Source: Alphaproteobacteria bacterium (lineage in GTDB: Bacteria > Pseudomonadota > Alphaproteobacteria > GCA-2731375). From it: a DNA stretch of 64,000 nt. The DNA is taken from NCBI GenBank assembly GCA_030752605.1, contig JASMDX010000064.1, forward strand, positions 1 to 64,000, in the 5' to 3' direction. Position numbers and translations under genes: made by a program. Shown piece by piece: positions 1 through 64,000 of this stretch (the first letter of the stretch is position 1; the number at the start of each line of letters is the position of its first letter). The notes under the pieces were generated by a model that saw only the letters and a list, made by a program, of their open reading frames with translations, did not search any database and was not told the DNA's origin.

Positions 1-197
1 GGGGAATCACAATCGAGCCGAAAAGTGAATCAGAAACGCAAGAAGACGATCGCCAACACAGCACTTTCTTGCAATCTCAATTACTTCAAATCGCCGAAAA
101 TCAGAGGCATGGCAACGCTGTCCGAGTTCTTAACAGACGACAAATTGATTCCAATTTTATACTGTTTGATCTAGGCGTTTGGCGCCATAAGTGGCTG

Positions 198-503
198 CTA
201 GTCTACGGCGGTCGCCTCGGCGGCGGGCGCCGCCTTCGCGACGGCGCGTTTCAGGCGGCGTGCCTTGAGGGACAGCTGGCTATCCTTGGCAGCGGTCAAA
301 TAGGCGTCCAGGCCGCCCTTTTTTTCCACCGTACGCAGGGCGGATACACAAACCTTCAAACGGATAGCACGGCCCAGGGCATCCGAGTGCAGCGCCATTT
401 CCTGCACATTCGGCAGGAACCGCCGCCGTGTTTTGTTGTGAGCATGTGAAACGTTATTGCCCGTCAACACGCCTTTACCGGTAAGTTCGCAACGCCGCGC
501 CAT
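198..503 (-). CDS. rpmB: 50S ribosomal protein L28
   Basis: The ORF 198..584 contains the motif [32 protein letters not shown], typical of L28. The start is placed at the internal ATG at 503, giving about 100 aa, the normal L28 length. The stop is TAG at 198-200. Confidence 0.85.
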
Positions 504-940
504 GATATCAATCGTCCCAATAGATCCGGCGGCGGAAGTACCGGCGGAGCGGCGTTTTTTAGGCAAATCAAAGGCTCGCGTCAAGTACGTTAGCGAGGTG
601 GCGGTGAGAAAAATCGTGGTTGCAGTACAACGCCCAGCCGGGATGCATACACGATATATTTGGCACCGTTCAAGATTATGATCGCCGATTGATTATGTAA
701 TTATTTCGTTGCACGAACATAGTCACCCGAAGACACTCGAAATGAGTAATTTCTGTATCTTACGACGCGCGAACCCGCAGCAACCGTGCGGCGGCAACGT
801 ATCTGCAAGGGATGAAGCCGTTACTGATCGAAAACGGGCCAACCAAATTGCTATTTCGGTCGTGCTAAACTTTCCTGGCCTCATCCGGATTTTGATAGGG
901 GCGCAAGATGAAGAAGCAGAATTTTACGGCATAGTCGGGC

Positions 941-1132
941 ATGGCTGCGTTAACAGTATTATTGTCGGCCTGTTTCGACGACCCTGATGTAGGGCTGCAA
1001 TCGGTAACAGCAGCCCCGGAAGGCATTATGCCGACTGGGCTCATGATAAAAGACAATGCCACGGGTCCTGCGGCAAGAGGTCAATTTGCACTTATGAGTA
1101 TGGGCCAGCTCAAGAAAGCACTGCAGGATTAA
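941..1132 (+). CDS. small putative lipoprotein (63 aa)
   Basis: The ORF begins MAALTVLLSAC, a signal peptide followed by an LSAC lipobox-like cysteine. It lies in a lower-GC gap between rpmB and meaB. No homology assignment is possible. Confidence 0.2.
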   Translation: MAALTVLLSACFDDPDVGLQSVTAAPEGIMPTGLMIKDNATGPAARGQFALMSMGQLKKALQD

Positions 1133-1147
1133 GGTGGCATCACGATA

Positions 1148-1249
1148 CAGATGCGGTAGCAGATCCAGATCAACCGCCTTTTCAATAAACGCGTCGACGT
1201 ACTGGCCGAGACCGCCTGCCTCCAACCAACTTCCGATATCGTCCGCCAC
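1148..1249 (-). pseudogene. SAM (sterile alpha motif) domain N-terminal remnant
   Basis: The first about 34 aa of ORF 959..1249 read MADDIGSWLEAGGLGQYVDAFIEKAVDLDLLPHL. This matches the W-L-x-x-L-G-L-x-Q-Y-x-x-x-F start of bacterial SAM domains, as in rhizobial adenylate cyclases, and then diverges. No catalytic domain follows. Confidence 0.3.
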
Positions 1250-1344
1250 GGCGTCCCATCCCTTTTGCAGAGGGATTATAGCATATTATGACTTTTTCGC
1301 GGCGCTGAAGATGCCGTCAGCCTTCCTGCTATCCAATGGAAGCT

Positions 1345-2395: not shown

Positions 2396-2680
2396 GTGCC
2401 AAGCATCGATCCCCTGCCACGGGGAGTGCGGCCAGAAGCGCCGCTTGGAGACAGCCGCAGGGGCACTGAAGCACGATTGTTGTTCATGGGCAGGCTCAGC
2501 CATGAAAAAGGTATCGGCAAGCTTTTCGAGGCCCTAAGCAGCGGTGCCCTGGCCAATCTCGACTGGACGGCGGTAATCGCGGGCGATGACAAAAATTACC
2601 GCCCGATGATTTCAAACACCCTGGAATTCTGCCCCCATTTGGTGTACCCGATAGAACATGGAGAAGGCAAAGCATCATGA
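2396..2680 (+). pseudogene. glycosyltransferase family 1 fragment (about 94 aa of the C-terminal domain only)
   Basis: The motif LLFMGRLSHEKGIGKLFEAL...VIAGDD resembles the start of a GT1 C-terminal domain. No N-terminal domain is present, because only 60 nt separate it from the meaB start. It ends prematurely, and its TGA overlaps the hldE ATG (ATGA). Confidence 0.35.
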
Positions 2681-6130: not shown

Positions 6131-6229
6131 GAAGTCGCCAAAGAAAAAGGTTCGGGCATAGGAACGATGGTAAGGCGGCGGCCGGCCTGGCGCTTGGCTC
6201 CCGCCTGTTTTCCCGCCGTCCGGAAGCGG

Positions 6230-6670
6230 TCAAGGCCCCGGGTCCTCCCAACGCCTGAGACGTTTCGCGGCTGCGCGGGCAAAGCGCAGGGTAACCTCGC
6301 GCCGCCGGCTGGCATGCAGCGCCTTGGAGTTGCCAGGCGCCGGACGGGCGATATCGCCAGAATAGGCATCAGCCAGAATTATTCCCGGTTCGTCAGGTAA
6401 TATCTCTACTGGAAAGTCCAGGGGTACCGCGAAATAGAACAGATCGCAATAGTCGAGATATTCCGGCCATTTCTGATCCGATCTAAAATCCACCACGCTG
6501 CACTTGATCTCGACAATAGCGATGCGGCCCTTGCGGTCGATTCCGGCCAGATCGGCCCGGCGGCCGGAGCGCAGGGTAAATTCGGTCAGACTGTCATAAC
6601 CCAGATGGGTCAACAGCCGGCCCACGCCACGGGCCAATTTCTGTGCCGTGTCATTGCGGGGCGCCGCCAT
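6230..6670 (-). CDS. mmcB: MmcB-family DNA repair protein (PD-(D/E)XK nuclease fold)
   Basis: The core ADLAGIDRKGRIAIVEIKCSVVDFRSD is typical of MmcB-like putative endonucleases from alphaproteobacteria. Confidence 0.55.
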   Translation of the reverse strand: MAAPRNDTAQKLARGVGRLLTHLGYDSLTEFTLRSGRRADLAGIDRKGRIAIVEIKCSVVDFRSDQKWPEYLDYCDLFYFAVPLDFPVEILPDEPGIILADAYSGDIARPAPGNSKALHASRRREVTLRFARAAAKRLRRWEDPGP

Positions 6671-9149: not shown

Positions 9150-9248
9150 CACCGTCTGGCATCCGTCCACCCGTAATACTATACAAGTCCATAGGATAGA
9201 GGGAGAGAGGGAAGCAAGGCAATTGGCAACAGCGATGATGAACGCCTT

Positions 9249-9548
9249 TTGCGCCTGTCACCGCAAGACAATGTGGCGGTGCTGGTCCAATCGGTCAGCC
9301 AGGGCGAGCGCCTGTTGCTGGGCGGACAAGAACTGGTGCTGCCCTCCGATTTGGCCCTGGGGCACAAGCTGGCTCTCAGGCCACTGGCGGTTGGCGATAC
9401 GGTAATCAAATACGGCACGCTCATCGGCTCCATCACCCAGGCCGTCGCCGCCGGCGGGCATGTGCATAACCACAATCTGAAAAGTGATTACATCGCCAAC
9501 CATTCCGAAGATGATCCTTACGAAGCCGACCTTGAAGTGGAGCCCTAG
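9249..9548 (+). CDS. UxaA/GarD-family (altronate/galactarate dehydratase) small SAF-domain subunit
   Basis: The 99-aa N-terminal SAF-like segment, with HKLALRPLAVGDTVIKYG, matches the split form of UxaA-family hydratases. Confidence 0.55.
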   Translation: MRLSPQDNVAVLVQSVSQGERLLLGGQELVLPSDLALGHKLALRPLAVGDTVIKYGTLIGSITQAVAAGGHVHNHNLKSDYIANHSEDDPYEADLEVEP

Positions 9549-9550
9549 AC

Positions 9551-9715
9551 ATGATCAACGGCTATCTGCGCGCCGACGGGCGGAAGGGCATCCGCAACAT
9601 GGTCCTGGCCGTGGCCCAAGGCACCGAAAGCAATTCGGAAGCCCTGGGCCATCAGGAGTTTTGTATGAAGTACAAACGTTTCGAAGCCATCGGCCCGGAA
9701 TGTTCGCCGATCTAG
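9551..9715 (+). pseudogene. UxaA-family large subunit, truncated after about 54 codons
   Basis: It starts MINGYLRADGRKGIRNMVLAVA, the canonical large-subunit start, then diverges and stops. The remainder is absent, and the 3' end is overlapped by the convergent peroxiredoxin gene. Confidence 0.45.
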
Positions 9716-10155
9716 CCTAAATCCGCCAATACCTGGTCGGGATGCTCCGCCGGGACGACGGTATCGTAGACCTTGACGATATAGCCGTCGGGACCAATCA
9801 GAAAACTAAAGCGGGCCGGAAACGGTTTTTCCGTCTGGATCACGCCATAGGCTTCGCCCGCGACTTTCTCGGGATCGCTCAACAGATCGTAGGGAAAGTT
9901 GAACTTCTCCTGAAAGGTGCGATTATCCTCCGGGCTATCGAACGAAGCGCCCAGGATCACGGCATTCTTGGCTGTAAAGTCTTGGATTCGATCACGGAAC
10001 CCTTTGCCTTCAACGGTTCAGCCAGGCGTGTCGGCCTTTGGATACCACCACAGGACCACATGGTGGCCCTTATACTGTTCCAGGGTGGTGGTTACACCCT
10101 GTTGGTTGCGCATGGAAAAGGCTGGTGCCAAATCCCCTACTTTCGGTAATGCCAT
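9712..10155 (-). CDS. bcp: Bcp/PrxQ-type peroxiredoxin with an in-frame TGA at the peroxidatic Cys codon (candidate selenoprotein)
   Basis: From ATG 10155 the frame is uninterrupted to the stop at 9712, except for one TGA at 10018-10020 (codon 46). The protein reads MALPKVGDLAPAFS...VVLWWYPKADTPG[TGA]TVEGKGFRDRIQDF...ILGASFDSPEDNRTF... It aligns along its length with E. coli Bcp, YPKAMTPGCTVQACGLRD, with the TGA exactly at Cys45. There is a strong RBS (GGGGAG). The six-frame track only reports the part downstream of the TGA. Confidence 0.65.
9984..10002 (-). other. candidate bacterial SECIS-like hairpin downstream of the in-frame UGA
   Basis: The mRNA segment GGGUUC-CGUGAUC-GAAUCC forms a 6-bp stem (one G-U pair) with a 7-nt loop containing GU. 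It begins 16 nt 3' of the UGA. This was folded by eye only. Confidence 0.3.
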
Positions 10156-11153: not shown

Positions 11154-11507
11154 CCACCTTTAACCGCGATGAGCCACTATGGCGGCGACTTCAACGGGGT
11201 GGCTCAAGGGCGACATATGCTTGGTTCTGAGGATGAGTAGATAATCGCTGCCAGGTATCTCGCGATGCAGAATTTCCGTTACCCGGCGGTCGGGCTCGCT
11301 GGTCTATTCGCCGCAGATGATCAGCGTCGGCGCGGGAATGCCGCGACAATCGCACGGTGTGGTCGGGTTCGAGAGATTAGCCGCGAAATTGGCAATGCCA
11401 CGGTTGTTGTAACCGGCAGAGCCGAACCGCATGATCTCCGCCACATCCAAGTTGGCCTGAAAGATGAAATCCAGGCTCGGTTCAACGATTTTCATATGCT
11501 GTTCCAA
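11154..11507 (-). pseudogene. alpha/beta-hydrolase C-terminal fragment with an internal TAG
   Basis: The ORF 11304..11507 ends ...GIPAPTLIICGE, then a TAG. The same frame continues TSEPDRRVTEILHREIPGSDYLLILRTKHMSPLSHPVEVAAIV..., a classic alpha/beta-hydrolase C-terminus. The N-terminal about 150 aa, including the nucleophile elbow, are absent. Confidence 0.4.
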
Positions 11508-12836: not shown

Positions 12837-12978
12837 GACGGCGTGAGGCAGGCGCGGCGTTCTATTTTAGGAACAAAGCAAGCCCTGATCAAACTATTTG
12901 CAACTCCGCTCATTGGAACTCGAACGAGTTAAGTCCTCGACGAGTTTTGCCGCCATGTCAGCTTTGCCTCGGGCTCAT

Positions 12979-14118
12979 TCAGGCGGCGCGGTGGGGAAGG
13001 CAAATCTGGCGGATCGCCTCGCCGTTCTGCAGCCGATCGAAGCCTTCATTCAAATCGTTGAGTCCAACCTGGCGGCTGATCAGCTTGTCGACCGGCAACC
13101 GGCCCTGGCGGTACAAGCTGATGAAGCGCGGAATGTCGCGCACCGGCACGCAAGAGCCCATATAGCTGCCCTTGATAGCCTTCTCCTCCGCGACGAGATT
13201 ACTCTGGATAAAGGAGAATTCGGCCGTCGAGGGGGACAGGCCAGCCGTCACGACGGTCCCGCCATAGCGCGTGATCTCATAGGCCGTCTTCATCGCCGGA
13301 ATGACGCCGGCCAGGTCGATCGCGAAATCGACCCCGCCGTTCGTCAGGTCGCGCACCTGTTCGGCATGGCCCGCCTCCGAGGCATCGATCGTATGCGTGG
13401 CGCCGAACTGGCGGGCGAGGCCCAGCTTGTCATCGGCGATATCGACGGCAATGATCGTTTCCGCGCCGGCCAGCTTGGCGCCCAGCACGCCGTTCAGCCC
13501 GACCCCGCCGAGCCCGATAATTGCAACCGTGTCGCCTGGTAGAATGCGCGCCGTGTTGATCACCGCGCCCACGCCGGTCATCACCGCACAACCGAACAGT
13601 GAGGCCTCGTGCAGCGGCAGATCCTTGTCGATGACGACGACCGAGCCGCGGTCGGCGACCGCGTATTCGGCGAAGCAGGACACGCCGGTATGGTGCGCGA
13701 TACGGTTGCCGTCAGCGTCGGCGATGCGGCGGCCGCCGCCCATCAGATCGCCCGCCGCCTTGGCCTTGGCCCCGACCTCGCAAACTTGTGGCCGCCCCTC
13801 CATGCAGCGCCGGCAGCGCCCGCAGCTGGGACTGAACTGGAAGACGATATGGTCGCCTTGGGCTATATCTGTGATGGCGGATCCGACCTCGACGATCGAA
13901 CCCGCGCCCTCGTGCCCTAGTACCAGTGGCTCCGGCCGCGGGCGCGCGCCGTTCATCACGGAGAGGTCGGAATGGCACAGCCCGGCACCGCCGATCTTGA
14001 CCAGCACCTCGTTCGGACCGGGAGGATCCAAGGTAACCTCCTCTATACTGATCGGCTTGCTGTCGGTAAACGGCAGCGGCGCATCGAACCGGCGCAGCAC
14101 GGCGGCCTTCATCTTCAT
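12979..14118 (-). CDS. zinc-dependent alcohol dehydrogenase family protein
   Basis: The Zn-ligand motifs GHEGAG and GLCHSD, the structural-zinc cysteines CGRCRRC, and the Rossmann motif GLGGVG are present. The start at ATG 14118 is preceded by AGGGAGGAAG. Confidence 0.8.
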   Translation of the reverse strand: MKMKAAVLRRFDAPLPFTDSKPISIEEVTLDPPGPNEVLVKIGGAGLCHSDLSVMNGARPRPEPLVLGHEGAGSIVEVGSAITDIAQGDHIVFQFSPSCGRCRRCMEGRPQVCEVGAKAKAAGDLMGGGRRIADADGNRIAHHTGVSCFAEYAVADRGSVVVIDKDLPLHEASLFGCAVMTGVGAVINTARILPGDTVAIIGLGGVGLNGVLGAKLAGAETIIAVDIADDKLGLARQFGATHTIDASEAGHAEQVRDLTNGGVDFAIDLAGVIPAMKTAYEITRYGGTVVTAGLSPSTAEFSFIQSNLVAEEKAIKGSYMGSCVPVRDIPRFISLYRQGRLPVDKLISRQVGLNDLNEGFDRLQNGEAIRQICLPHRAA

Positions 14119-14485
14119 AGCTTCCTCCCTGATCGTCCGGCGCGTCGGGGCGCCCTGGCGGTTATAGTAGCCATGGTACTCTAAGGCCCCGTCCTTCAGA
14201 CACCACAAAATTCCGGAAAAAGCGAGCTTGTCAAAGGGACGAACGGGACGCAACGCCGGCGCCTTCCCTCCGGCATGGTGAGAGTTTAGCGCTAGGGGCG
14301 ACGGATCTATCCGCGAAAAATCGGATGGCTCGAATGTCGGGCGTCCATAACCGGGTCGGGGATCATTGAAAATGACCCGTCCTGAAAATGGACTTTCGGT
14401 GACGATAGTGGTCTAACCCATCTTGGATATCAGAGGCTTCATGACACCAATTGGGCCACGCTGAAATGGTTGAATTTTAAGAATA

Positions 14486-15712
14486 GTGGAGACTTTGATG
14501 CAAGATGACTTGCTGCATGTAACAACTTGGCGGAATGGCGAGAAGGCTTGGTCGCCGTTTTCCGAACAGGAGCTGCTCAACCGGCAAGAAAAAATCCGAG
14601 CCTATGCGGCGGAGCACGATATCGATGCCTGCATTTTCACCTCACATCACAATATCTGCTACTTCTCCGGCTTTTTGTATTGCTATTTTGGCCGCAAATA
14701 CGCCCTCGTGATTGATGGTGGCGGTGCCACGACAGTGACGGCGGCGATTGATGGCGGGCAGCCGTGGCGCCGCGGCGTTGCCGGCAACATCACTTATACT
14801 GACTGGAGCAAGGACAACTATTTCCGCGCCCTTCAACAATTGCTACCCAAGGTCAAGCGCCTTGGCATTGAGTTTGACCACGTCAGCCTGGATCTTCATC
14901 GGCAACTGATTGAGGCATTCCCAAATACTGAAATGGTCGATGTTGGGCCACCTACAATGTGGCAGCGGGCCATCAAATCGCCAGATGAACAGGCTTTAAT
15001 CAAGATAGGGGCCCGGATCTGTGAACTCGGTGGACAAGCATGCGTGGATGCGGTCGAGGCAGGCGTTCCCGAGCACGAGATCGCCATCGCATCGAGCACC
15101 ACGATGATCCGCGAGATCGCCCGTAGTTTTCCCTTTGTCGAACTGATGGACAGCTGGACGTGGTTTCAATCGGGGATCAATACGGACGGCGCCCATAATC
15201 CGGTGACCAATCGAGTGATTGACGCGGGAGACATATTGAGTTTGAACTGTTTCCCCATGATTTTCGGTTACTATACAGCGCTCGAACGCACCCTGTTCTG
15301 TGAATTCGCAAGCGATGAACATCTCAGATTGTGGGAAATCAATTGCGAGGTTCATCGCCATGGCTTGGGATTGATCCGGGCCGGCGCCAAATGTAGCGAT
15401 ATTGCCAAGGAGTTGAACAATATCTATCGCCGCCACGATTTACTCAAATATCGCTCTTTTGGATATGGACACTCATTTGGCGTGCTAAGCCACTATTACG
15501 GCAGGGAAGCTGGAGTAGAACTTCGAGAAGACGTGGAAACCGTGCTGCGTCCGGGCATGGTGGTCTCCATGGAACCAATGATCATGATACCGGAAGGGCA
15601 AATGGGCGCGGGCGGATACCGCGAACACGACATCTTGATTATCGGCGAAGAGAGCACCGAGAACATCACCAAATTCCCATTCGGGCCGAAGTATAATATT
15701 ATCGAGAAATAG
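14486..15712 (+). CDS. creatinase (creatine amidinohydrolase, M24 family)
   Basis: There is close full-length similarity to Pseudomonas putida creatinase, for example TDWSKDNYF, WTWFQSGINTDGAHNPVT, FGYGHSFGVLSHYYGREAG and YREHDILI. An alternative start is the ATG at 14498. Confidence 0.8.
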   Translation: METLMQDDLLHVTTWRNGEKAWSPFSEQELLNRQEKIRAYAAEHDIDACIFTSHHNICYFSGFLYCYFGRKYALVIDGGGATTVTAAIDGGQPWRRGVAGNITYTDWSKDNYFRALQQLLPKVKRLGIEFDHVSLDLHRQLIEAFPNTEMVDVGPPTMWQRAIKSPDEQALIKIGARICELGGQACVDAVEAGVPEHEIAIASSTTMIREIARSFPFVELMDSWTWFQSGINTDGAHNPVTNRVIDAGDILSLNCFPMIFGYYTALERTLFCEFASDEHLRLWEINCEVHRHGLGLIRAGAKCSDIAKELNNIYRRHDLLKYRSFGYGHSFGVLSHYYGREAGVELREDVETVLRPGMVVSMEPMIMIPEGQMGAGGYREHDILIIGEESTENITKFPFGPKYNIIEK

Positions 15713-16002
15713 CCTGATCATTGGAATTTCTTGCATGCCGAATGCAACAACCTTGGGGTCGATACCTTGCCCAGGAGGTTCCATCGATTAGTTTTCACGT
15801 AACCACATCGGTTGCTGATCAGGGTGCCTGGTGACGATGCTTGAATGACCCTGATCGAATTTTGCCAATTGCGACAGATCGAACAGGTGCGAATTTCCAA
15901 TCAAAGCATGCCGGCGCTTTGCCATCGTTGGTGGGCTTTGTTTCAAATACGCTGCCATAGTTGTCCAAAAAATGTGCCCACGGGAGGATGGACAAATGAT
16001 AC

Positions 16003-17643
16003 TTAGCCATCCGCCTCTGCTCGTAATTCAACCCGGCGGATCTTGCCCGAGATGGTTTTGGGCAGGGCCTCGCGGAATTCGATTTCGCGGGGGTACTTAT
16101 AGGGCGCGGTCAGGTTCTTGACGAAATCCTGGATCTCCACCACCAAATCGTCCGAGGCTTCATAGCCTTCCGACAACACGACAAAGGCCTTGACGATCTC
16201 GCCGCGCATTTCGTCTGCCTTGGCAACAACGGCGGATTCCATGACGCCGGGATGCTCCACCAGGGCGCTTTCCACCTCAAACGGCGAGATGCGGTAGCCG
16301 GATGAGGAAATAATGTCGTCGGAGCGGCCAACGAACCAGATATAGCCATCCCCATCCCGCGTCGCCGTATCTCCGGTGTAGTACCAGCCGTTGCGGAAGG
16401 ATTTCGCCGTCGCCTCTGGATCGCGGAAATAACCGTCGAACAAACCGGGAGGATACGGATCGGTGATTTTCACCGCGATATGGCCGACGATATCGTCCGC
16501 GACCACATTGCCGTCATCATCGATAATGCCGATATCAATACCAGGCACTGGCTTGCCCATGGAACCGGGCCGGATTTCCATGCCGGGATAGTTGGCGACA
16601 ATATTGACGGTCTCGGTCTGGCCATAGCCATCGTGGATGTCACAGCCCGTGGCGGCTTTCCAACTGCGCATGGCTTCGGGGTTCAACGGCTCGCCCGCGC
16701 CGATGCAATGGCGGATGGAGCTAACGTCGTAAGGTGAAATATCCATGGTCGCGAACAGGCGGTAGACCGTGGGTGGGGCACAGAAAGTAGTCACCTTGTA
16801 TTTCTCGATCAGCTTCAAGTGCATATCCGCATCGAAACCAGCAGCGTCATATAGCATGATCGCGGCACCGGCGATAATGGGCGGGAAAATAATGCCCCAG
16901 GCCGCCTTGGCCCAGCCGGTATCGGTCAGGGTCCAATGGATATCGTCCCGGCGCAAACCCTGCCAATAATTACAGGTAATGGTATGGGCCAGGCCGTAAG
17001 CGTGGTCGCGGGCAACCATTTTTGGCAATGACGTAGTGCCGGAGGTGAAATAAATCAGCATCAGATCCGACGCCTTGGTCGGCGGCACCAAGGAACGGTC
17101 AAAGGTATCAGGCGCGGTGGCGCAGGCGCTTTCCTTGCAGGTCCAGCCCGCACGCTCCTCACCAATGATGATCAGATGCTCCAACGTGGGGCATTGATCG
17201 CGCACGGCCTCAACCTTTTCCGCGTGCTCGGCGGTGACAATGACGATCTTGGCGCCGGAGCGGTTGACCCGGTATTCGATATCATGCGCTGTCAACAGAT
17301 TGGTGCCCGGCATGGCAACGACGCCCATTTTCATACAACCGAACAGGGCATGATAAAAGGCAGGTATCCGCGTGATCATGACAAAGGCGAAATCGCCTTT
17401 CTCGGCGCCAATATCCTTGAGCACATTGGCGAACTGGTTCGAAGCCCTCTCCAGATCACCATAGCTTTGTTCTTCCGCGCTTTCGCCATCGTTAGCCACG
17501 GCGATCAGGGCGGTCTTGTCCGCCTTCCCCGCCTGGGTCGCCAGCACATCAAAGGCAAAATTGAAGTCATCCGGAATCTCGAGCTTGAACTCCGCCCGCG
17601 CCGCCTCGTAATCGAAAGTTTCTGCTTCGCTAGCCATGACCAT
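16003..17643 (-). CDS. acyl-CoA synthetase (AMP-forming, ACSM/propionate-CoA ligase-like)
   Basis: The AMP-binding motif YFTSGTTSLPKMV, the A8 motif YYTGDTATRDGDGYIWFVGRSDD and the terminal PKTISGKIRR are present. The start is taken at ATG 17643, preceded by GAGAGG. Confidence 0.8.
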   Translation of the reverse strand: MVMASEAETFDYEAARAEFKLEIPDDFNFAFDVLATQAGKADKTALIAVANDGESAEEQSYGDLERASNQFANVLKDIGAEKGDFAFVMITRIPAFYHALFGCMKMGVVAMPGTNLLTAHDIEYRVNRSGAKIVIVTAEHAEKVEAVRDQCPTLEHLIIIGEERAGWTCKESACATAPDTFDRSLVPPTKASDLMLIYFTSGTTSLPKMVARDHAYGLAHTITCNYWQGLRRDDIHWTLTDTGWAKAAWGIIFPPIIAGAAIMLYDAAGFDADMHLKLIEKYKVTTFCAPPTVYRLFATMDISPYDVSSIRHCIGAGEPLNPEAMRSWKAATGCDIHDGYGQTETVNIVANYPGMEIRPGSMGKPVPGIDIGIIDDDGNVVADDIVGHIAVKITDPYPPGLFDGYFRDPEATAKSFRNGWYYTGDTATRDGDGYIWFVGRSDDIISSSGYRISPFEVESALVEHPGVMESAVVAKADEMRGEIVKAFVVLSEGYEASDDLVVEIQDFVKNLTAPYKYPREIEFREALPKTISGKIRRVELRAEADG

Positions 17644-17782
17644 GAGCCTCTCGTCCGTCATCAATTTCGTTGGCCGTACATTAATCCGCGTAATGCGCGG
17701 AGCCAACCCATCTTTCCTCTTGTGGATTGGGCCGGGTCGGTGAAAACTGGCGTCAACAAAATCCGCGTAAAAGGGAAGCGAG

Positions 17783-32264: not shown

Positions 32265-32834
32265 ATGAAGACAGTTTTGATTACCGGTGCCGCGGGCGGC
32301 ATCGGCACGCGTCTGCGCACATTGTTAAAAGGCGTCTATCCGCGTCTAACCCTCTCCGACATGGCCCAGGTCACGGCGTTGCTGCGAGGCGTCGATGACA
32401 AGGTCCGCCCCGACAGCCGTTACGGCGTATCCAAAGCCTTTGGCGAGGCCCTGGGTTCATTCTATGCCGAGAAATTCGGCCTCGGCGTCCTTTCCATCCG
32501 TATCGGCAACATCGATGACTATCCGGTGGACGAGCGGCGTCTGTCGATCTGGGTCAGCCCACGCGACCTGGTGCAACTGATCCGCATTGGCCTGGAGCAC
32601 CCGGATCTGGGTTACGAGATTGTCTGGGGCGCCTCCGCCAACGCACGGGCCTGGTGGGACAACGAACCGGCACACCGTCTTGGCTATCGCCCCCAGGACC
32701 ACGCCGAGGACCACCGGGACCGCGCCCTGGCGGCGGAGACGGAGCGCACACCGAATGCAGTAGCCGACTATTTTCAGGGCGGTGATTTTTGCGCCTTTGA
32801 TTTCGCTGGTCCCACACCCGAAGGAGACGCATGA
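32265..32834 (+). pseudogene. udh: uronate dehydrogenase (Udh) homolog with an internal deletion of about 80 aa
   Basis: The ends match Agrobacterium Udh: MKxLLITGAAGxxG, RPDxxYGVSKxFGExL, VWGASANxxxWWDN and FQGG. The central Rossmann core between LSD and RYGVSK is missing, leaving 189 aa against about 265. Confidence 0.5.
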
Positions 32835-33759
32835 TCATGGCGACCATCGAAGCCGTTGATTTTTTCTATCTGCGTATGCCGACGGTCGAGGCAATCGCCG
32901 ACAACAGCCAGGATTCACTGCTGGTGCGCATCGCCTCGGGCGACGAGGCGGGCTGGGTCATGTGAAAAGCACGGCGAAGACGCCCTATGCCTCGCAGCTG
33001 TTCGGCAATGACCCGCATGAGACACTGACCAAGGGCGCGGCCCAGCGGAAAGCTGGATTTCGCGCCGTTAAATTCGGCTGGGGCCCATATGGTCAAGGTG
33101 ATGCGGCAACGGACGCCGCGCACATCGCCGCCGCACGCGAGGGCCTGGGCGAGGACGGTATTCTGTTGGTCGATGCAGGCACGGTCTGGGTCGACGACGT
33201 GGAGGCCGCCGCCGCGCGCCTTGACGCGTTAAAAACACACCGGGCCACCTGGCTGGAGGAACCATTCATCTCCGCCGCCCTAGGCGCTTATAAGGCGCTG
33301 GCCGAACGGGCCGCACCACTGCGTCTGGCAGGCGGTGAAGGGGCGCATAACTTTCATATGGCACAGCAGATGATCGACCATGCCGGCCTGGGCTATGTGC
33401 AGATCGACGCTGGACGCATGGGCATCTCTGACGGCAAGCGGGTGGCCGATTATGCCGCCCAGCGCGATGTCCGTTTCGTCAACCATACCTTTAATTCACA
33501 CATCGCGCTCAGCGCCTCGCTGCAGGCCTTCGCCGGACACGAAAAGGATGATATTTGCGAATACCCGGTAGAGGCCAAGGCGCTATCAAGGGAGATTACC
33601 CAGAGCCTGATTGAACGGGATGGTGATGGCCTGATCAGCGCGCCCGAGGCACCAGGTCTGGGCATGGAGATCGATGCGGACGCCCTGGCCCGCTATCTGG
33701 TTCAGGTCGAGATCACGATTGATGGCGAGGTCGGCTACAAAACACCCCAGCTAACGTGA
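32830..33759 (+). pseudogene. enolase-superfamily (mandelate racemase/Gci-like) gene with a deletion plus frameshift
   Basis: A 44-codon capping-domain start (...LLVRIASGDEAGW) stops at 32963. The barrel domain resumes in another frame at 32962 (KTPYASQLFG...GFRAVKFGWG...LEEPF...). About 65 aa are missing between the two parts. Confidence 0.5.
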
Positions 33760-38639: not shown

Positions 38640-39095
38640 AAGCTAACGACTTTGGGCGTCTAGTGGAGAGCTTCATGCGCAACTGCATCCTGACGACCAG
38701 AAACTCGATCACGGCGAAGATCGCGCCGTATTTGAGGAGATCCTCCGCTCCGTGAACCTGCATTTGTTCGTGTTTGAAGATAGGGACATGATTATCCAAG
38801 CGACCTGCTACCTGAATATTATTCTCAATATTACGCGCTGCATCTCACTAGGGAAGCATTGAAAACGTCGTGACGGAAGAGACCTTGCACTACATGGGTA
38901 TCAGCAAAGAAATCATCAGGCACACGCTACGATTTGCTTGGAACAAGGGTTGCTACAAGATATGTTGCAAACAGGGACAAAACGGGAAGTGACACGCAAC
39001 TTCGATACACCCTTCGGCTTTCGCGGCGACGAGAAATTTGGATTTTTCGCACAGCCTCCCGGCGGCAATAGCTAGAACACGTTCTAAAATTGAAA
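38640..39095 (+). other. AT-rich decayed region with frameshifted ORF fragments (possibly an acetyltransferase-like remnant)
   Basis: GC here is visibly lower than in the surroundings. Three short frames read ...VFEEILRSVNLHLFVFEDRDMIIQ..., ...LRFAWNKGCYKI... and ...GFRGDEKFGFF... No intact ORF longer than 100 aa is present. Confidence 0.2.
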
Positions 39096-39651: not shown

Positions 39652-39673
39652 GGCACGTTCGGAGTATTCCGGC

Positions 39674-42528: not shown

Positions 42529-42537
42529 TTCCGAAGC

Positions 42538-43020: not shown

Positions 43021-43103
43021 ATGCCGTCCCCTTTGAACCTTATCCTGTGCCGCATTTTAGCCGTCACGATGGCCGCGCGATAGGGTCAAATGCCGGCAAT
43101 TAT

Positions 43104-43910
43104 TCACTTCAATGCATCCGAGATCAAACGGCCAAAGATAACCATCTCCGGACTGGTCCCACGATAGGTATCAAGGGCAGAAAGAATGGCCGGAATTTCC
43201 GCCATGTCAGGCATCGCGGCATCCGGTATCGGTGGCAGTTGAGCAAACAGCTCCACCACCGCTCCGTCCACACCCGCCAACAACGCCACCCGTGCGGCGT
43301 CGGTTCCGGGCGCGGTGAACAGCGGTACCAGGACCCGGGCCAGGTGCGAAAAATAGGCCGGCCAACGGGCCAAAATACGATAGAGTCCGGGCACGAATGG
43401 CGTGCCATCCACATCCGTTCCCAATTTCAACAAGGACGTACGAGTGTCCTCATCCGCCAAGGCCGGATCGAGCATTGTGGGCAGGACCGGCAGGGCCTCG
43501 GGCGGTTGCCAGCCGGCGCCGGGCCAGCCGGCGCCTTGGGGCCGCTCCTCCGCCAGCAGATGACGCAGTAGACCGGCGAACATCAGATTGACCGGCGCCA
43601 CCCGGACAAAGCCGGCGCAGACCTGGGCCACCAGCCGCAGATCACCTCCGGAAAGACCAAATTCCCGTGCATCGAACGACGCCAGAGGCGGCAGTGGTAA
43701 ATCGGTGGCGACCCGCCAACCGGCGTCTTGTGCCTGCCCGGACCGAAAGGCCGGGTTCAACGCGGCCCAGCTCCACTCCAGCCAGCCCGGCTTGGTCGCC
43801 AGATGGCGCTGCAATGACGAGACATAGGGCACGGCCCAAAGCTGGCGGATTTCTTCGTAGATCCCCGCGATCTCACCCGTGGCCGCGTCTTCCGGCAGCT
43901 CCACCAGCAT
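43104..43910 (-). CDS. DehI-family protein (halocarboxylic acid dehalogenase DehI-like)
   Basis: The N-terminal signature GEIAGIYEEIRQLWAVPYVSSLQRHLATKPGWLEWSW resembles the DehI family. The start is taken at ATG 43910; the longer ORF would overlap the amidase by 90 nt. Confidence 0.45.
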   Translation of the reverse strand: MLVELPEDAATGEIAGIYEEIRQLWAVPYVSSLQRHLATKPGWLEWSWAALNPAFRSGQAQDAGWRVATDLPLPPLASFDAREFGLSGGDLRLVAQVCAGFVRVAPVNLMFAGLLRHLLAEERPQGAGWPGAGWQPPEALPVLPTMLDPALADEDTRTSLLKLGTDVDGTPFVPGLYRILARWPAYFSHLARVLVPLFTAPGTDAARVALLAGVDGAVVELFAQLPPIPDAAMPDMAEIPAILSALDTYRGTSPEMVIFGRLISDALK

Positions 43911-43924
43911 CTGATCAGCCACCG

Positions 43925-45346: not shown

Positions 45347-46425
45347 TCCACAGCCTCCGGGATCGCAACGATTAACAAAATACCGTAAATGGCAACGAAG
45401 ATCGTGTCTTTGACCGCGCCCAAGCCCTGCTTGCCTTCGTTGCCCTGGATCAACATGACGATGATCTCTAAAACGAAGGCGATGATGGCCAGAAAGAAGA
45501 ACGGCCAGACCGTGCTCCACCACGAGATCTCCGGTAGGGGCGCGGCGCCCTCGGGCACAGTCTTCATGGCGCGCCAGATCAGCAACAGGATCGGCAGGGC
45601 GATGAGATAAGCATGCGCCAGCAGAAAACGCAGCCGCGTGCGGGTCCGATCCAACACCCAAAAGACCAGAAAAAACAGCGCCACATAAAGTACATCCCAG
45701 AACATCGCGGCGTATTCTTCGCCTCCGGGGTCTTGCCGCAGGTTGAGGAAAGCCAGGATCAACAGGATTGTAATGGCATCACAGAGCAGCCATTCCCGGA
45801 AGTTCTCCGCCACGTCCTTGACGTTCCAGCCCCGCGAGGCCTTGTCGAACAGCAACACCAGAGCTACCGCCAGAGAGGCCGGATAGATCAGGCCCAGAAC
45901 CAGTGAATACTGCTCGGCCCGGGGCAGATAAATCCAATTCAACAGCAAGAACGCGGCCAGCAGGCCCAACAGACCCAACAGGCGCAGTCCCGCCGGCGTT
46001 GGCTGGGTCGCCGCATCGGGAACGGCGGCCGCGGTCTCCGCCGGCGCCGAAGCGGCGCCGATTGACGGTGCCGCCGGCGCGGCACTTTGCCCTGATCTCT
46101 GGGCCACCAGAAAAATCAGGAAGCCGATCAGGCCCAGACCGCCGACAACCAGCATAATGACGACAAAGGTGATGGCCCGGCCATCGGCCCGCCAGTCCGC
46201 CGCCTGGCCCAACAGGCCCTCAGTGGAAAATTGCCAGATTGCGAGCACCGCAATGACCAACAGCAACAGCGCGGCCAAGAGGTATTGATACCATCGGTTG
46301 GCGCCGCCGCCGCCGTCCTTCGATTGAGCAACCGTCCGGCCAATGAGAAAGACCAAGAACGCCAGCATGCCGACAACGGCGATGGCGATCATGACCTCCA
46401 GAAATATAATTGACCGACTATCCAC
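45343..46425 (-). CDS. hypothetical polytopic membrane protein (360 aa) with an Ala/Pro-rich linker
   Basis: The protein has a hydrophobic profile throughout. There is no family call. Confidence 0.5.
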   Translation of the reverse strand: MDSRSIIFLEVMIAIAVVGMLAFLVFLIGRTVAQSKDGGGGANRWYQYLLAALLLLVIAVLAIWQFSTEGLLGQAADWRADGRAITFVVIMLVVGGLGLIGFLIFLVAQRSGQSAAPAAPSIGAASAPAETAAAVPDAATQPTPAGLRLLGLLGLLAAFLLLNWIYLPRAEQYSLVLGLIYPASLAVALVLLFDKASRGWNVKDVAENFREWLLCDAITILLILAFLNLRQDPGGEEYAAMFWDVLYVALFFLVFWVLDRTRTRLRFLLAHAYLIALPILLLIWRAMKTVPEGAAPLPEISWWSTVWPFFFLAIIAFVLEIIVMLIQGNEGKQGLGAVKDTIFVAIYGILLIVAIPEAVE

Positions 46426-60769: not shown

Positions 60770-60780
60770 GAGTGAAAAAA

Positions 60781-62277
60781 ATGGCACGTTACGATGTGGT
60801 TGTTGTCGGTGCCGGTAATGCCGCCCTTTCCGCCGCCATGGCGGCGCGGGAAAACGGTGCCAAGGTGCTGATCCTGGAAAAAGCGGCGGAAGAGGAAAAA
60901 GGCGGTAATTCCTACTTCACCGCCGGCGGCTTTCGCTTTTGCCATAGCGGCGTCGAGGATGCGGCCACGGATATTCTGACCGATTTATCCGATGCCGAGC
61001 GCGAGCAGATCATCCTGCCCGTACACGACCAAAACACATTCTATGATGCGCTGATGAAGGTAACCCACCACCAATCCGACGAGGACATGGCCTGGCGCCT
61101 GATCAACGGCTCCCGCCCGGCGATGGTCTGGTTGAAGAACCACAAGATCCGCTTCATCCCCATGTTCGGGCGGCAATCCTTCAAGTTGAACGGCAAGCAT
61201 CACTTTTACGGCGGCGTCAATATCGAGGCGGTGGGCGGCGGTGCCGGCCTGGTAGAGATGGAATTGGCGGAAGTGCTGCGCATGGGCTGCGAGATCCGTT
61301 ATTCATCCGGTGCTACACGGCTAATCCAGGACCAACAGCGCCGCATTACAGATATCGAGGTGCGCGGACCGAACGGCTATGAGGAAATCAAGACCAAGGC
61401 CGTGGTGCTGGCCTGCGGCGGCTTTGAATCCAACCCCGAAATGCGGGTGCGCTATCTGGGCCCCGGCTGGGATCTGTGCCGGGTGCGTGGGACCCGGCAC
61501 AACATGGGCGACGGCATCCGCATGGCCATGGAGATGGGCGCGCGGCCCTATGGCAATTGGTCAGGCTGTCATTCGGTAGGTTGGGATATTTCCGCACCCC
61601 CTTATGGCGATTACGAGGTGCTGGATAATTTCCAGAAGCATTCCTATCCCTGGGGCATCATGGTCAACCTGAACGGTGAGCGTTTCGTGGACGAAGGTGA
61701 AGACCTGCGCAATCTAACCTATGTGAAGTTTGGCCGAACCATCATGAGCCAGCCCTTCCGCACGGCTGTACAGATTTTCGATCAGAAAACCATTCCGGTG
61801 CTGCGCGATGAATACCGCATCAGACAAGTAACCAAATATACCGCCGACAGCATCGCCGAACTGGCGGCGCAGTTGGAGATCAACCCCCAAGCTCTGGAAG
61901 CCACGATCACGGAATTCAACGCCGCGTGTCGTCCAGGCGATTACAACCCATCGGTTCTGGATGGTGTCACGACCGAGGGTCTGACCATCAACAAGACCAA
62001 TTGGGCCCTACCCATCGACGAGCCGCCGTTCGAGGCCTTTGTGACCACAACGGGTATCTCCTTCACCTTCGGCGGCCTGCGCATTGACGAGGTGGGCGCG
62101 GTGCAGGATCTTTCCGACCGCTCCATTCCGGGACTGTTTGCGGCGGGCGAGCTGGTCGGCGGGTTGTTTTTCGAGAACTATCCCGGCGGCTCCGGCCTAA
62201 TGGCGGGTACTGTGTTCGGCAAACTGGCTGGTGAAGGCGCCGCCGATTATGTGAACGGTGGTGCGGCGGCAAGCTAA
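60781..62277 (+). CDS. FAD-dependent tricarballylate dehydrogenase TcuA-like oxidoreductase
   Basis: The motifs DVVVVGAGNAALSAA, GGFESN, RGTRHNMGDG, GERFVDEGED, NAACRPGD and FTFGGL parallel Salmonella TcuA. No tcuB follows. Confidence 0.7.
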   Translation: MARYDVVVVGAGNAALSAAMAARENGAKVLILEKAAEEEKGGNSYFTAGGFRFCHSGVEDAATDILTDLSDAEREQIILPVHDQNTFYDALMKVTHHQSDEDMAWRLINGSRPAMVWLKNHKIRFIPMFGRQSFKLNGKHHFYGGVNIEAVGGGAGLVEMELAEVLRMGCEIRYSSGATRLIQDQQRRITDIEVRGPNGYEEIKTKAVVLACGGFESNPEMRVRYLGPGWDLCRVRGTRHNMGDGIRMAMEMGARPYGNWSGCHSVGWDISAPPYGDYEVLDNFQKHSYPWGIMVNLNGERFVDEGEDLRNLTYVKFGRTIMSQPFRTAVQIFDQKTIPVLRDEYRIRQVTKYTADSIAELAAQLEINPQALEATITEFNAACRPGDYNPSVLDGVTTEGLTINKTNWALPIDEPPFEAFVTTTGISFTFGGLRIDEVGAVQDLSDRSIPGLFAAGELVGGLFFENYPGGSGLMAGTVFGKLAGEGAADYVNGGAAAS

Positions 62278-63153
62278 CTTAGCTTCTTTGTGCAGCCAGC
62301 TTTTGATGGACTGAAACAGCGGATCGGAGGCTTTCGAGGCCGGATAGACCAATTGGACCAGGCGGTGCGAGCGCCGTTTGATGTCAAACGGGCAGACCAA
62401 CTATCCACTGGCCAGTTCATCCTGGATCAAGGCTTCGATACCGATGGCAACGCCCAGTCCTTCGATGATCGCGTGCAAGGTAAGGTTAGTGCTTTCGAAC
62501 TTCAGTCCGCTATCAGCATCAACTTCTTTTTCGTTGGCGAAATCCAACCGGTGTTTCCAATCGGTCGATCGTGTGACCGCATGCAACAGGATTTGCCCTG
62601 CCAGGTCTTTGGATCCAAGAATCATTTCGGCCAAGGCCGGCGTGCAAACGGGAAAGGCATCGACATCCATGAATTTTTACACGATCTAACCATCCCGCAT
62701 GGCTCTATCGCCCTGGACCTGGATGGTAAGGTCGTAGTGGCCGCTGGTGAATTCAGCCACATTGAGTGATGTAGTAAGGCGAATATCGATATTGGGATAT
62801 AGGTCGTATAAAGCGCCCCAACGCGGGATCAGCCACCGTATCGCGAATGTCGGATAGGCACAGATGGATACGGTTGAGTTTTTCTCCAACTCACAAATGC
62901 GGCAGGAGGCATCGGCCAACTGTCCGAGCGGCCCCCTAATGTCTGCCAGATAGTCGCGGCCAAGGGCCGTTGGGCGCACTCGCTTGTGGCTGCGCTCAAA
63001 AAGTTTTTTGCCAAAAAACTCTTCCAAACTGCGAATTTTCTGGCTAATGGCACCGGGTGTGAGATTCAATTCGTTGGCTGCACCTTGGAAACTTGCCTGC
63101 CGCGCAGCCGCCTCAAACGCCTTGAGAGCCGATAATGATGGAATATGGCGCAT
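62197..63153 (-). pseudogene. LysR-family (GcvA-like) transcriptional regulator, disrupted by two frameshifts
   Basis: The HTH plus the first half sit in frame A (62686..63153, MRHIPSLSALKAFEAAAR...). The co-inducer domain continues in frame B (62401..62670, ...FPVCTPALAEM...) and frame C (below 62400, ...RLVQLVYPASK...SWLHKEAK). Together these would encode one LysR of about 300 aa. Confidence 0.5.
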
Positions 63154-63515
63154 TCGACCGCCTTGTCTTAAGTGATTATTCCTCACGCATACTGTGTAAA
63201 ATTATCGTTTGCCGATCAAGCAGACCGGAAGCATGCTGCGATATTGATGCCGCTATGCCGAGAAGGAACGCCGCAATGAATATCTTGAGCAATCACATGT
63301 TTGCCAACAACACGGAACTCGACGAATGGGCCGCTCCCGACTGCAACGGCAAGAACTTCTTTAACATCGACAACAGCCGCGTTATCGAGTAGCTCGGCCA
63401 GCAATACGCACTCCTGCGTCAGCGTGTGGAGGAGGTCATCAATGACATCCGCGCAGAGGATAGACGGCCGCCTCTTTCATCACCCCGCAATAGCAACCAA
63501 CAACGGAGAGATATC

Positions 63516-63890
63516 ATGAGCGAAAACGGCGACCGCATTATCGCGCTCGATAAGGAACGCATGCAGGCCATGGCAGACAAGGATATCGCCAAGCTGAACA
63601 GCATGTTGTGCAAGGACCTAATTTACACCCACTCAACGGCGCGTCTGGACACCAAGGAAAGTCTGATTGGCAACATGGAATCCGGTGCCACGGTATACAC
63701 CTCGGTCGAGCCATCGGAAGTGAAATCTCAGGATCTGGGCGATGCGGTCGTGTTAACCGGTGTGGCCCAGATCAACGTTGTCGCGAACGGCACGCCAAAC
63801 TCGTTCGGCGTTCGCTTTACCGATGTTTATCAGAACCAGGGCGGAACTTGGCGCATGGTGGCCTGGCAATCAACCAAGCTGCCGGACTAG
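63516..63890 (+). CDS. NTF2-like (DUF4440/SnoaL-like) protein
   Basis: The start at ATG 63516 is preceded by GGAGAG. The 124-aa product includes the segment LIYTHSTARLDTKESL and ends QNQGGTWRMVAWQS. Confidence 0.5.
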   Translation: MSENGDRIIALDKERMQAMADKDIAKLNSMLCKDLIYTHSTARLDTKESLIGNMESGATVYTSVEPSEVKSQDLGDAVVLTGVAQINVVANGTPNSFGVRFTDVYQNQGGTWRMVAWQSTKLPD

Positions 63891-64000
63891 CGCATGTCAC
63901 GGCTGAACCGCAGGCTCAGCCGGTGTAGTCGGCGTCACTGACTTTTTCGAACCATACGCTGCCACCGCCATCCTCGCCATTTTCCGATAGGGCCAGATGC

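What the first reader, a model, noticed from the sequence alone, without database searches (positions are those of the whole stretch)
1..64000. Unusually high density of decayed genes in an otherwise intact chromosome segment
At least eight loci look like pseudogenes or gene stubs: a GT1 fragment (2396..2680), a SAM-domain stub (about 1148..1249), a truncated UxaA large subunit (9551..9715), and an alpha/beta-hydrolase C-terminus with an internal TAG (11154..11507). The others are Udh with an internal deletion (32265..32834), a Gci-like enolase with a deletion plus frameshift (32830..33759), an acetyltransferase-like debris field (38640..39095) and a LysR with two frameshifts (62197..63153). 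An entire hexuronate oxidation route (Udh, Gci, GarD/UxaA) appears to have been lost. This pattern fits ongoing genome reduction or niche change. It also means that any single in-frame stop, including the Sec candidate, must be weighed against decay.
Basis: seen in the sequence. Interest (0 to 1): 0.5.

Follow-up and report, generated by a model that had tools for sequence, protein, structure and literature searches.

The report
Cluster of recently decayed accessory genes
This 64-kb chromosome piece from an uncultured marine oxygen-deficient-zone alphaproteobacterium really does carry remnants of about a dozen broken genes among 53 healthy ones, showing ordinary gene decay caught in the act in a near-clonal ocean population rather than a new kind of genetic element.

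Summary
All eight loci are real gene remnants. Seven have an intact counterpart in sister species, six of them at the same map position. The alpha/beta-hydrolase piece matches only the C-termini of ~275-aa hydrolases elsewhere. I found four more traces: a UxaA small subunit without its ATG, an AidB::epimerase stub and a VanZ tail.

The lesions recur in independent assemblies that are 99.89-99.99% identical, so they are not assembly errors. The LysR gene carries three in-frame stops, not frameshifts. Udh has two in-frame deletions.

The four junctions I aligned base by base sit on 4-9-nt direct repeats. A fifth shows only a ~9-nt overlap of adjacent alignments. Blocks of 5.1, 2.7 and 0.7 kb present in sister species are also missing.

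Remnant density is 0.15-0.2 per intact gene, against a RefSeq chromosome median of 0.024. It is only about 2-3 times that seen in sister MAGs, and part of it lies in a hypervariable polysaccharide locus.

The decay spans different ages. Udh and the enolase are very recent, LysR is intermediate, and GNAT looks oldest.

Loss of a whole hexuronate route is not shown. The enolase is not a Gci orthologue, and the UxaA pair lies elsewhere and is not a GarD equivalog.

The in-frame TGA in the PrxQ peroxiredoxin is conserved and under strong constraint, so it is a true Sec codon.

This is a known phenomenon of moderate interest.

The parts
959..1249 (-). 5' stub of a SAM-adenylate/guanylate cyclase-AAA-TPR gene. 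Only residues encoded by about 1148-1249 are SAM-like; the rest of the ORF is unrelated read-through.
   Evidence: Pfam SAM_1 positions 6-39 of 64. L099 has the intact gene of more than 1,090 aa after MeaB, and nucleotide homology stops at window 1148.
2396..2680 (+). Glycosyltransferase family 1 fragment. The GT1-like part is about 2459-2600.
   Evidence: Pfam Glycos_transf_1 positions 12-59 of 172. It is 67% identical to residues 185-223 of the 362-aa GT1 of L090, whose cluster (GT1, CapK-like, 444-aa gene, flippase) lies upstream of HldE there.
6132..6229 (+). Scar of a 5.1-kb deletion that removed heparinase II/III-like, WecG, GT1 and VanZ-like genes. The last 27 codons of the VanZ-like gene survive at 6175-6229 and beyond.
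   Evidence: Window 6132-6175 corresponds to L087 5013-10129 and L092 1815-6929. VanZ residues 372-398 match window 6175-6255.
9216..9548 (+). UxaA-family small subunit (SAF domain) that has lost its start codon (ATG to AAG at 9216-9218).
   Evidence: Alignment with L092. dN/dS is 0.17 against 0.03-0.06 for neighbouring genes.
9551..9715 (+). UxaA-family large subunit reduced from 396 to 54 codons by an in-frame deletion of about 1,026 nt between ATCCGCAA repeats.
   Evidence: Pfam GD_AH_second 1-20 and GD_AH_C 209-237. Alignment with L092 10336-11526.
11154..11507 (-). C-terminal third of an alpha/beta-hydrolase gene with an in-frame TAG at 11304-11306.
   Evidence: It aligns across the stop to residues about 190-266 of 275-aa Abhydrolase_1 proteins, with E down to 1e-17. 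The only indel among the same-species contigs aligned lies here, at 11159.
17689..17738 (.). Site where a PAS_5 gene (189 aa) present in the sister species is absent. The direction of the change is not established.
   Evidence: Window 17689-17738 corresponds to L092 17167-17901.
32265..32834 (+). Uronate dehydrogenase (Udh) family gene with two in-frame deletions (60 and 183 nt), leaving 189 of 270 codons. The NAD-binding HLGG and catalytic SSN segments are gone.
   Evidence: Alignment with L003 and L005. PDB 3ay3 and 3rft match the intact L003 protein at E about 1e-60. The same 189-aa ORF is called in L001 and L002.
32837..33759 (+). Enolase-superfamily gene (orthologue of PDB 2HZG) broken by a single 256-nt deletion that removes most of the N-terminal capping domain and shifts the frame.
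38640..39095 (+). GNAT acetyltransferase pseudogene with three frame-shifting indels (+2 near 38663, -2 after 38838, -1 after 38961). It is 52% identical to intact orthologues.
62197..63153 (-). GcvA-type LysR regulator pseudogene. It is a single frame with three premature stops (TAG at 62686-62688, TAA at 62677-62679, TAG at 62401-62403).
   Evidence: It aligns without gaps at 80% identity to the intact 298-aa P0131. Relative-rate tests give 31 vs 12 (p = 0.005), 30 vs 10 (p = 0.002) and 25 vs 14 (p = 0.11) with three outgroups.
63276..63482 (+). Chimeric stub made of AidB-like acyl-CoA dehydrogenase codons 1-32 joined to the last ~37 codons of an epimerase gene, left by a 2,655-nt deletion.
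   Evidence: Window 63378 and 63370 correspond to L096 9771 and 7116. Translations are and tblastn.

Best explanation
The window is a chromosomal segment of an uncultured free-living marine alphaproteobacterium. The organism belongs to GTDB genus GCA-2731375 and lives in oxygen-deficient-zone water columns.

In this lineage a set of accessory genes became dispensable and is being removed by ordinary mutation. The affected genes cover sugar-acid catabolism, surface-polysaccharide synthesis, a cyclase signalling protein, a hydrolase, an acetyltransferase, and a LysR regulator with its divergent AidB/epimerase neighbours.

The dominant lesion is spontaneous deletion between very short direct repeats, ranging from 60 nt to 5 kb. 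The rest are nonsense mutations, small indels and one start-codon loss.

The events have different ages. GNAT looks oldest, LysR is intermediate, and Udh and the enolase are very recent. All are shared by every same-species contig I aligned, in a population with almost no sequence diversity. A recent clonal expansion with weak purifying selection on non-essential genes, or a narrowed niche, therefore probably let them spread.

Shown directly: the remnants, their intact counterparts, the junction repeats, the reproducibility across assemblies and the rate differences. Inferred: the cause (drift or niche change) and whether the pattern is genome-wide.
For: - Remnant identity comes from partial Pfam matches.
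- Intact counterparts exist in relatives.
- The same sequence occurs at 99.89-99.99% identity in contigs from independent ENA, JGI and NCBI assemblies. No difference falls at any lesion.
- Four junctions aligned base by base show direct repeats of 4-9 nt: TCCGAC and GATG in Udh, GCTGGG in the enolase, ATCCGCAA in UxaA. The AidB/epimerase junction shows only a ~9-nt overlap of adjacent BLAST alignments. The other junctions were not examined at this level.
- On ages, GNAT is 52% identical with three indels. LysR has dN twice that of its neighbours and 2.5-3 times more lineage-specific replacements than its orthologue with two of three outgroups. Udh and the enolase show window-branch N:S of 4:40 against 32:452 in intact neighbours.
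- The 53 neighbouring genes are intact, with dN/dS of 0.01-0.23 and mostly below 0.1.
- Additional blocks are missing relative to sister species. A conspecific MAG lacks ~8.5 kb after MutS.
- One more N-terminus plus C-terminus fusion remnant (GSDH-like) lies just past the window.
- The same genus is reported to vary in denitrification gene content among 99%-similar MAGs (PMC10359470).
Against: - Only 64-74 kb of one genome was examined, so a genome-wide trend is not shown.
- Sister MAGs also carry broken genes in the same regions: the enolase in L005, GATase in L003, a permease in L006, the heparinase-like gene in L092 and L093, and APH in L094. The excess here is only about 2-3-fold.
- The polysaccharide locus differs among all relatives, and some (L102, L104, L107) share the short HldE-MeaB arrangement. 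Those gaps may be island turnover rather than reduction.
- The window also contains DNA absent from relatives, at 12850-16004 and 39050-39673.
- No IS elements are present, MutS is intact, and intact genes cover about 86% of the window. The classical signs of reductive evolution are therefore missing.
- Udh and the enolase show no relaxed selection. This fits a very recent break but does not prove loss of function.
Confidence: 0.72

Rival explanations
1. This is ordinary turnover of accessory genes in a few flexible loci, as happens in any bacterial lineage. The genome as a whole is not shrinking, and the density in this window is a local accident.
For: - Relatives have their own broken genes, about one per 20 kb.
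- Udh, the enolase and GNAT are each absent from several other relatives.
- The polysaccharide cluster differs in every lineage examined.
- The window also holds DNA that relatives lack.
Against: - Twelve remnant traces among 53 intact genes is 6-8 times the RefSeq median, and more than any sister locus shows.
- The remnants are spread over at least seven separate places, not one island.
- One more lies in the next 10 kb.
Confidence: 0.3
2. The lesions are artefacts of metagenome assembly or binning, such as collapsed repeats, chimeric contigs or consensus errors.
For: The window comes from a short-read MAG. Tandem adh_short copies just outside the window do differ between assemblies.
Against: - Contigs of 50-220 kb from different projects and assemblers carry the same sequence. 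They differ by 1-24 substitutions per 14-21 kb, and none lies at a lesion.
- The lesions include nonsense substitutions and deletions of up to 5 kb, not homopolymer slips.
- The exact proteins of neighbouring genes are indexed in 106-190 blocks of the collection.
Confidence: 0.02
3. Some of the short forms are functional, conserved genes. Candidates are the 189-aa Udh, the 265-aa barrel-only enolase and the 54-aa UxaA fusion, all of which remain open reading frames, three of them through in-frame deletions.
For: - Both Udh deletions and the UxaA deletion are in frame.
- The Udh and enolase remnants show dN/dS of 0.04-0.08, like intact genes.
Against: - No relative carries the short forms; they have the full-length genes.
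- The Udh deletions remove the HLGG and SSN segments of the Rossmann core.
- The enolase lacks most of its capping domain.
- UxaA retains 14% of its length, and its partner subunit has lost its ATG.
- Three of four deletions being in frame is expected by chance with p of about 0.11.
- Low dN/dS is what a very recent break would give.
Confidence: 0.05

Closest known systems
Unitary pseudogenes and deletional bias in bacterial genomes (reviewed in the Pseudofinder paper, PMC9336565; census in PMC11229322)
   Same: Broken copies of single-copy genes whose intact orthologues exist in relatives. The lesions are nonsense mutations, frameshifts, truncations and internal deletions. The remnants are progressively shortened and then removed.
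   Different: Nothing essential differs. The density is several times the chromosome median, and most lesions here are repeat-mediated internal deletions rather than frameshifts.
Early-stage reductive evolution of recently host-restricted bacteria (own knowledge: Sodalis, Mycobacterium leprae, Shigella, Yersinia pestis)
   Same: A high local pseudogene fraction (about 15-18% of loci), a near-clonal population, and loss of catabolic, regulatory and surface-polysaccharide genes.
   Different: The organism is recovered from free-living water-column fractions (PMC10359470). The window has no IS elements, MutS is intact, and intact genes cover about 86% of it. Genome-wide figures are unknown.
Flexible glycosylation (O-antigen or capsule) islands of marine bacteria (own knowledge)
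   Same: The HldE-linked polysaccharide cluster differs in gene content between every relative examined. The GT1 stub and the 5.1-kb gap lie there.
   Different: Most of the other remnants (UxaA, Udh, enolase, GNAT, LysR, AidB/epimerase, hydrolase, cyclase) lie outside that locus.
Oxidative hexuronate pathway Udh-Gli-Gci-KdgD (Agrobacterium and Pseudomonas; own knowledge)
   Same: The intact orthologue of the broken SDR gene is a clear Udh-family protein. It is followed by an enolase-superfamily gene, as Udh is followed by Gci in Agrobacterium.
   Different: The enolase is much closer to the unassigned 2HZG than to Gci. No Gli or KdgD is adjacent. The UxaA-family pair is unlinked and below the GarD cut-off.

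Membership tests
Bacterial unitary pseudogene | Homology to a gene that is intact in related genomes, preferably at the same map position | tested here: met
   Six of the eight have a syntenic intact orthologue. GT1 has a homologue in a relative's cluster. The alpha/beta-hydrolase has only non-syntenic homologues.
Bacterial unitary pseudogene | The reading frame is disrupted, or most of the coding length is missing | tested here: met
   Deletions, stops, indels and a start-codon loss were mapped to the base.
Bacterial unitary pseudogene | The lesion is real, meaning reproducible in independent sequence data | tested here: met
   Independent assemblies are 99.89-99.99% identical, with no difference at any lesion.
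Bacterial unitary pseudogene | Relaxed selective constraint after inactivation | tested here: inconclusive
   This is met for LysR (two of three outgroups significant) and for GNAT, and suggested for the SAF subunit. It is not seen for Udh and the enolase, as expected if those breaks are very recent.
Bacterial unitary pseudogene | No functional product | not testable with these tools
   This needs transcript, protein or activity data.
Genome-wide reductive evolution | An elevated pseudogene fraction across the whole genome | not testable with these tools
   Only the window and about 10 kb beyond it could be read. One further remnant lies there.
Genome-wide reductive evolution | Proliferation of insertion sequences | tested here: not met
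   No transposase or integrase domains were found in the window's genes or intergenic DNA.
Genome-wide reductive evolution | Small effective population, or clonality | tested here: met
   There are 1-24 substitutions per 14-21 kb between contigs from different samples and projects.
Genome-wide reductive evolution | Net loss of DNA relative to close relatives | tested here: inconclusive
   At least about 10 kb is missing where remnants prove ancestral presence, and more where the direction of change is unknown. About 2.7 kb is present only in the window.
Oxidative hexuronate pathway | Uronate dehydrogenase (Udh) orthologue | tested here: met
   The intact L003 protein matches PDB 3ay3 and 3rft over its full length at E about 1e-60.
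Oxidative hexuronate pathway | Galactarolactone cycloisomerase (Gci) orthologue | tested here: not met
   The best PDB match is 2HZG at 497 bits. Gci (4ggb/4hpn) scores 97 bits, and no NCBIfam equivalog passes its cut-off.
Oxidative hexuronate pathway | Galactarate dehydratase (GarD) equivalog linked to the pathway genes | tested here: not met
   TIGR03248 scores 189 bits against a 731-bit cut-off. The gene pair lies 23 kb away, between APH kinase genes and PrxQ.

The most novel reading that the evidence does not exclude
A free-living planktonic denitrifier of oxygen-deficient zones is in the middle of a genome-wide burst of gene loss that accompanied a recent worldwide clonal expansion. That would offer a rare view of genome shrinkage in a free-living marine bacterium proceeding through pseudogenes and microhomology deletions, driven by drift rather than by selection for streamlining.
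Probability: 0.2. Interest if true: 0.55.

Novelty: new member of a known kind. Interest (0 to 1): 0.35.

Why it matters
Pseudogenes are usually scarce in free-living bacteria, and streamlined marine genomes show almost none. How marine lineages lose genes is therefore mostly inferred after the fact.

Here the intermediate stages are visible. The remnants are of different ages, several junctions show short direct repeats, and a regulator is decaying next to the stub of its deleted neighbours. A conspecific strain has already lost the whole block.

If the pattern holds genome-wide, it would give a natural test of drift against selection in marine genome reduction. The organism also matters to nitrogen loss in oxygen-deficient zones.

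Practically, the result shows which ORFs in this MAG should not be counted as metabolic capacity: Udh, the enolase, UxaA, LysR and GNAT. It also shows that the PrxQ TGA is a genuine selenocysteine codon.

Tried and rejected
- A look-up of the APH protein with the ORF-finder's start codon found nothing because the start was wrong.
- Blastx of all intergenic DNA against ORFs of relatives, and Pfam on six-frame translations of the ten largest remaining spacers, found no further remnants.
- No tRNA genes were found. No mobile-element domains appeared in the unannotated genes, so IS-mediated disruption is rejected for this window.
- TAG recoding was considered for the LysR and hydrolase stops. I rejected it because TAG ends 27 of 54 intact genes and LysR also carries a TAA.
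- A literature search for 2HZG gave no functional assignment.
- NCBIfam gave no equivalog for Udh, the enolase or the UxaA pair.
- I looked for a syntenic intact alpha/beta-hydrolase next to the isochorismatase gene. L092 and L090 have none.
- The direction of change for the PAS_5 gap and for the ADH + M24 block versus the 272-aa gene could not be settled for lack of outgroups.

Full report
**Source of the window**

The window's coordinates coincide exactly with GCA_030739775.1 contig JASLYN010000076.1, positions 1-64000 (L085). This is an uncultured marine alphaproteobacterial MAG with about 59% G+C.

A contig of GCA_002731375.1 is 99.96% identical over window 1-14 kb and 98.3% over 42-60 kb. 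That assembly gives its name to GTDB genus GCA-2731375. The genus is described as a Rhodospirillaceae-like denitrifier of oxygen-deficient-zone water columns, with gene content that varies among 99%-similar MAGs (PMC10359470).

The segment is chromosomal. It carries rpmB, mutS, purEK and pyrD. I found no tRNA genes and no mobile-element domains.

**Are the lesions real?**

Contigs of 50-220 kb from independent ENA, JGI and NCBI assemblies cover the whole window. They differ from it by 1-24 substitutions per 14-21 kb. None of these differences lies at a lesion.

The single indel among them, at 11159, falls inside the hydrolase remnant. Gene callers in those assemblies report the same short ORFs. 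Assembly error is therefore excluded.

**The eight loci, one by one**

1. *SAM stub.* Pfam SAM_1 matches positions 6-39 of 64. In L099, at 84% nucleotide identity, MeaB is followed by a gene of more than 1,090 aa encoding SAM, cyclase, AAA and TPR domains. Homology to the window ends exactly at 1148. At least 3.2 kb of that gene is gone.

2. *GT1 fragment.* It matches Glycos_transf_1 positions 12-59 of 172. It is 67% identical to residues 185-223 of a 362-aa GT1 that heads a polysaccharide cluster upstream of HldE in L090.

3. *UxaA large subunit.* The sister species has SAF (112 aa) plus a 396-aa large subunit between the APH genes and PrxQ. The window keeps about 15 N-terminal and 40 C-terminal codons, joined in frame at an ATCCGCAA repeat.

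4. *Alpha/beta-hydrolase.* No syntenic orthologue exists in L090 or L092. The remnant nevertheless aligns across its TAG to residues about 190-266 of 275-aa Abhydrolase_1 proteins, with E down to 1e-17.

5. *Udh.* There are two in-frame deletions, of 60 nt and 183 nt. They are flanked by TCCGAC and GATG repeats respectively. The intact L003 protein is a full-length Udh-family member.

6. *Enolase.* One 256-nt deletion at a GCTGGG repeat removes most of the capping domain and shifts the frame.

7. *GNAT.* It carries three frame-shifting indels and is only 52% identical to the intact orthologues. Those orthologues are 73-78% identical to one another.

8. *LysR.* It aligns without gaps to the intact 298-aa orthologue at 80% identity. 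Leu, Glu and Gln codons have been replaced by TAG, TAA and TAG. There is no frameshift.

- The SAF small subunit has lost its ATG, which now reads AAG at 9216-9218. Its dN/dS is raised.
- Between LysR and DUF4440, a 2,655-nt deletion fused the first 32 codons of an AidB-like dehydrogenase to the last ~37 codons of an epimerase.
- A 27-codon VanZ-like tail marks the edge of a 5.1-kb deletion. That deletion removed the heparinase II/III-like, WecG, GT1 and VanZ-like genes.
- A PAS_5 gene present in the sister species is absent here.

The LysR gene therefore sits beside the stub of its divergently transcribed neighbours. A regulator that lost its target would be expected to decay, although that link is an inference.

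**What is intact**

The remaining 53 genes cover 97-100% of their orthologues. Their dN/dS values are 0.01-0.23 and mostly below 0.1. Intact genes cover about 86% of the window. No further remnants were detected.

**Ages of the lesions**

dS to the nearest relatives is 0.5-0.9.

On the window-specific branch, Udh and the enolase have N:S of 4:40. Intact neighbours have 32:452. Those deletions are therefore very recent.

LysR has twice the dN of its neighbours. It also has 2.5-3 times more lineage-specific replacements than its orthologue with two outgroups (31 vs 12, p = 0.005; 30 vs 10, p = 0.002). A third outgroup gives 25 vs 14 (p = 0.11). GNAT looks oldest. Decay has thus been going on for some time and continues.

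A conspecific MAG lacks about 8.5 kb after MutS, including the LysR remnant. A GSDH-like N-terminus plus C-terminus fusion lies about 5 kb past the window.

**How unusual is this?**

RefSeq chromosomes have a median of 0.024 pseudogenes per CDS (PMC11229322). For 53 genes that predicts 1.3.

The five or six remnants an annotation pipeline would probably flag give P of 0.002-0.01. All eight give 6e-5.

Sister MAGs show about one broken gene per 20 kb in the same regions, though some of those may be assembly errors. The excess over close relatives is therefore only about 2-3-fold.

Part of the loss lies in a polysaccharide locus that differs in every relative. Some relatives share the short HldE-MeaB arrangement. 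The window also holds lineage-specific DNA: a Zn-ADH plus M24 peptidase block at 12850-16004, and ORF176 at 39050-39673.

**The pathway claim**

Udh is confirmed as a Udh-family protein. The enolase is the orthologue of the functionally unassigned 2HZG, not of Gci. The UxaA pair is unlinked and far below the GarD cut-off. A coherent loss of sugar-acid catabolism is plausible but not demonstrated.

**The Sec caveat**

The PrxQ gene at 9712-10155 (minus strand) has TGA at the peroxidatic Cys position. The codon and the sequence after it are conserved in three relative loci from two lineages, at 83-94% nucleotide identity. dN/dS over the whole ORF is 0.029. It is not decay.

**Verdict**

The interpretation as lineage-specific, ongoing gene loss is supported locally. 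Its genome-wide scope, and the drift or niche-change cause, remain inference. The phenomenon itself is well known.

Noticed in passing
window 9712-10155 (-): A PrxQ/BCP peroxiredoxin has TGA in place of the peroxidatic Cys codon (DTPG*TVEG). The TGA and about 40 nt after it are conserved in L090, L092 and L094. dN/dS is 0.029, and a hairpin can form just after the TGA. This is a genuine selenoprotein gene.
   Followed up: partly
window 12850-16004: A Zn-dependent alcohol dehydrogenase and an M24 (creatinase/prolidase-like) peptidase occupy the place of a 272-aa gene in the sister species. G+C drops to 52.7% at 14-16 kb, which suggests acquired DNA.
   Followed up: partly
window 39050-39673: A 176-aa ORF with no Pfam match sits right after the GNAT pseudogene. 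It is absent from L003, L005 and L006, which have 18-35 nt there.
   Followed up: partly
L080 18528-21044 (GCA_002731375.1) vs window 60751 onward: A conspecific MAG goes straight from MutS to tandem adh_short genes. It lacks about 8.5 kb (TcuA, the LysR remnant, DUF4440, Cupin, FMO, hydrolase, 2-Hacid_dh, DHDPS) that the window's strain still has.
   Followed up: partly
L179 15430-15762 (about 5 kb past the window end): A 110-aa ORF joins the N-terminus and the C-terminal end of a GSDH-type sugar dehydrogenase, where the sister species has an ADH_N gene. The neighbouring tandem adh_short genes number one, two or three in different assemblies.
   Followed up: partly
whole window vs L001, L002, L079, L081-L086: Contigs from different oceans' metagenome projects differ by only 1-24 substitutions per 14-21 kb. 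That is a strikingly uniform population for a planktonic bacterium.
   Followed up: partly
L005 12112-13289; L003 GATase; L006 permease; L092/L093 1837-3860; L094 5418-6463: Sister-species MAGs carry their own split genes: enolase, GATase, an ABC permease, the heparinase-like gene and APH. Decay or sequencing noise is therefore not unique to the window's lineage.
   Followed up: no
window 60784-62277: A TcuA-type tricarballylate dehydrogenase (above the NCBIfam cut-off) stands alone without TcuB or TcuC, next to the dead LysR gene.
   Followed up: no
window 28001-30000, 34001-36000, 42001-46000: AT skew is unusually high (0.16-0.24). One such stretch lies inside the 938-aa Band_7 gene.
   Followed up: no
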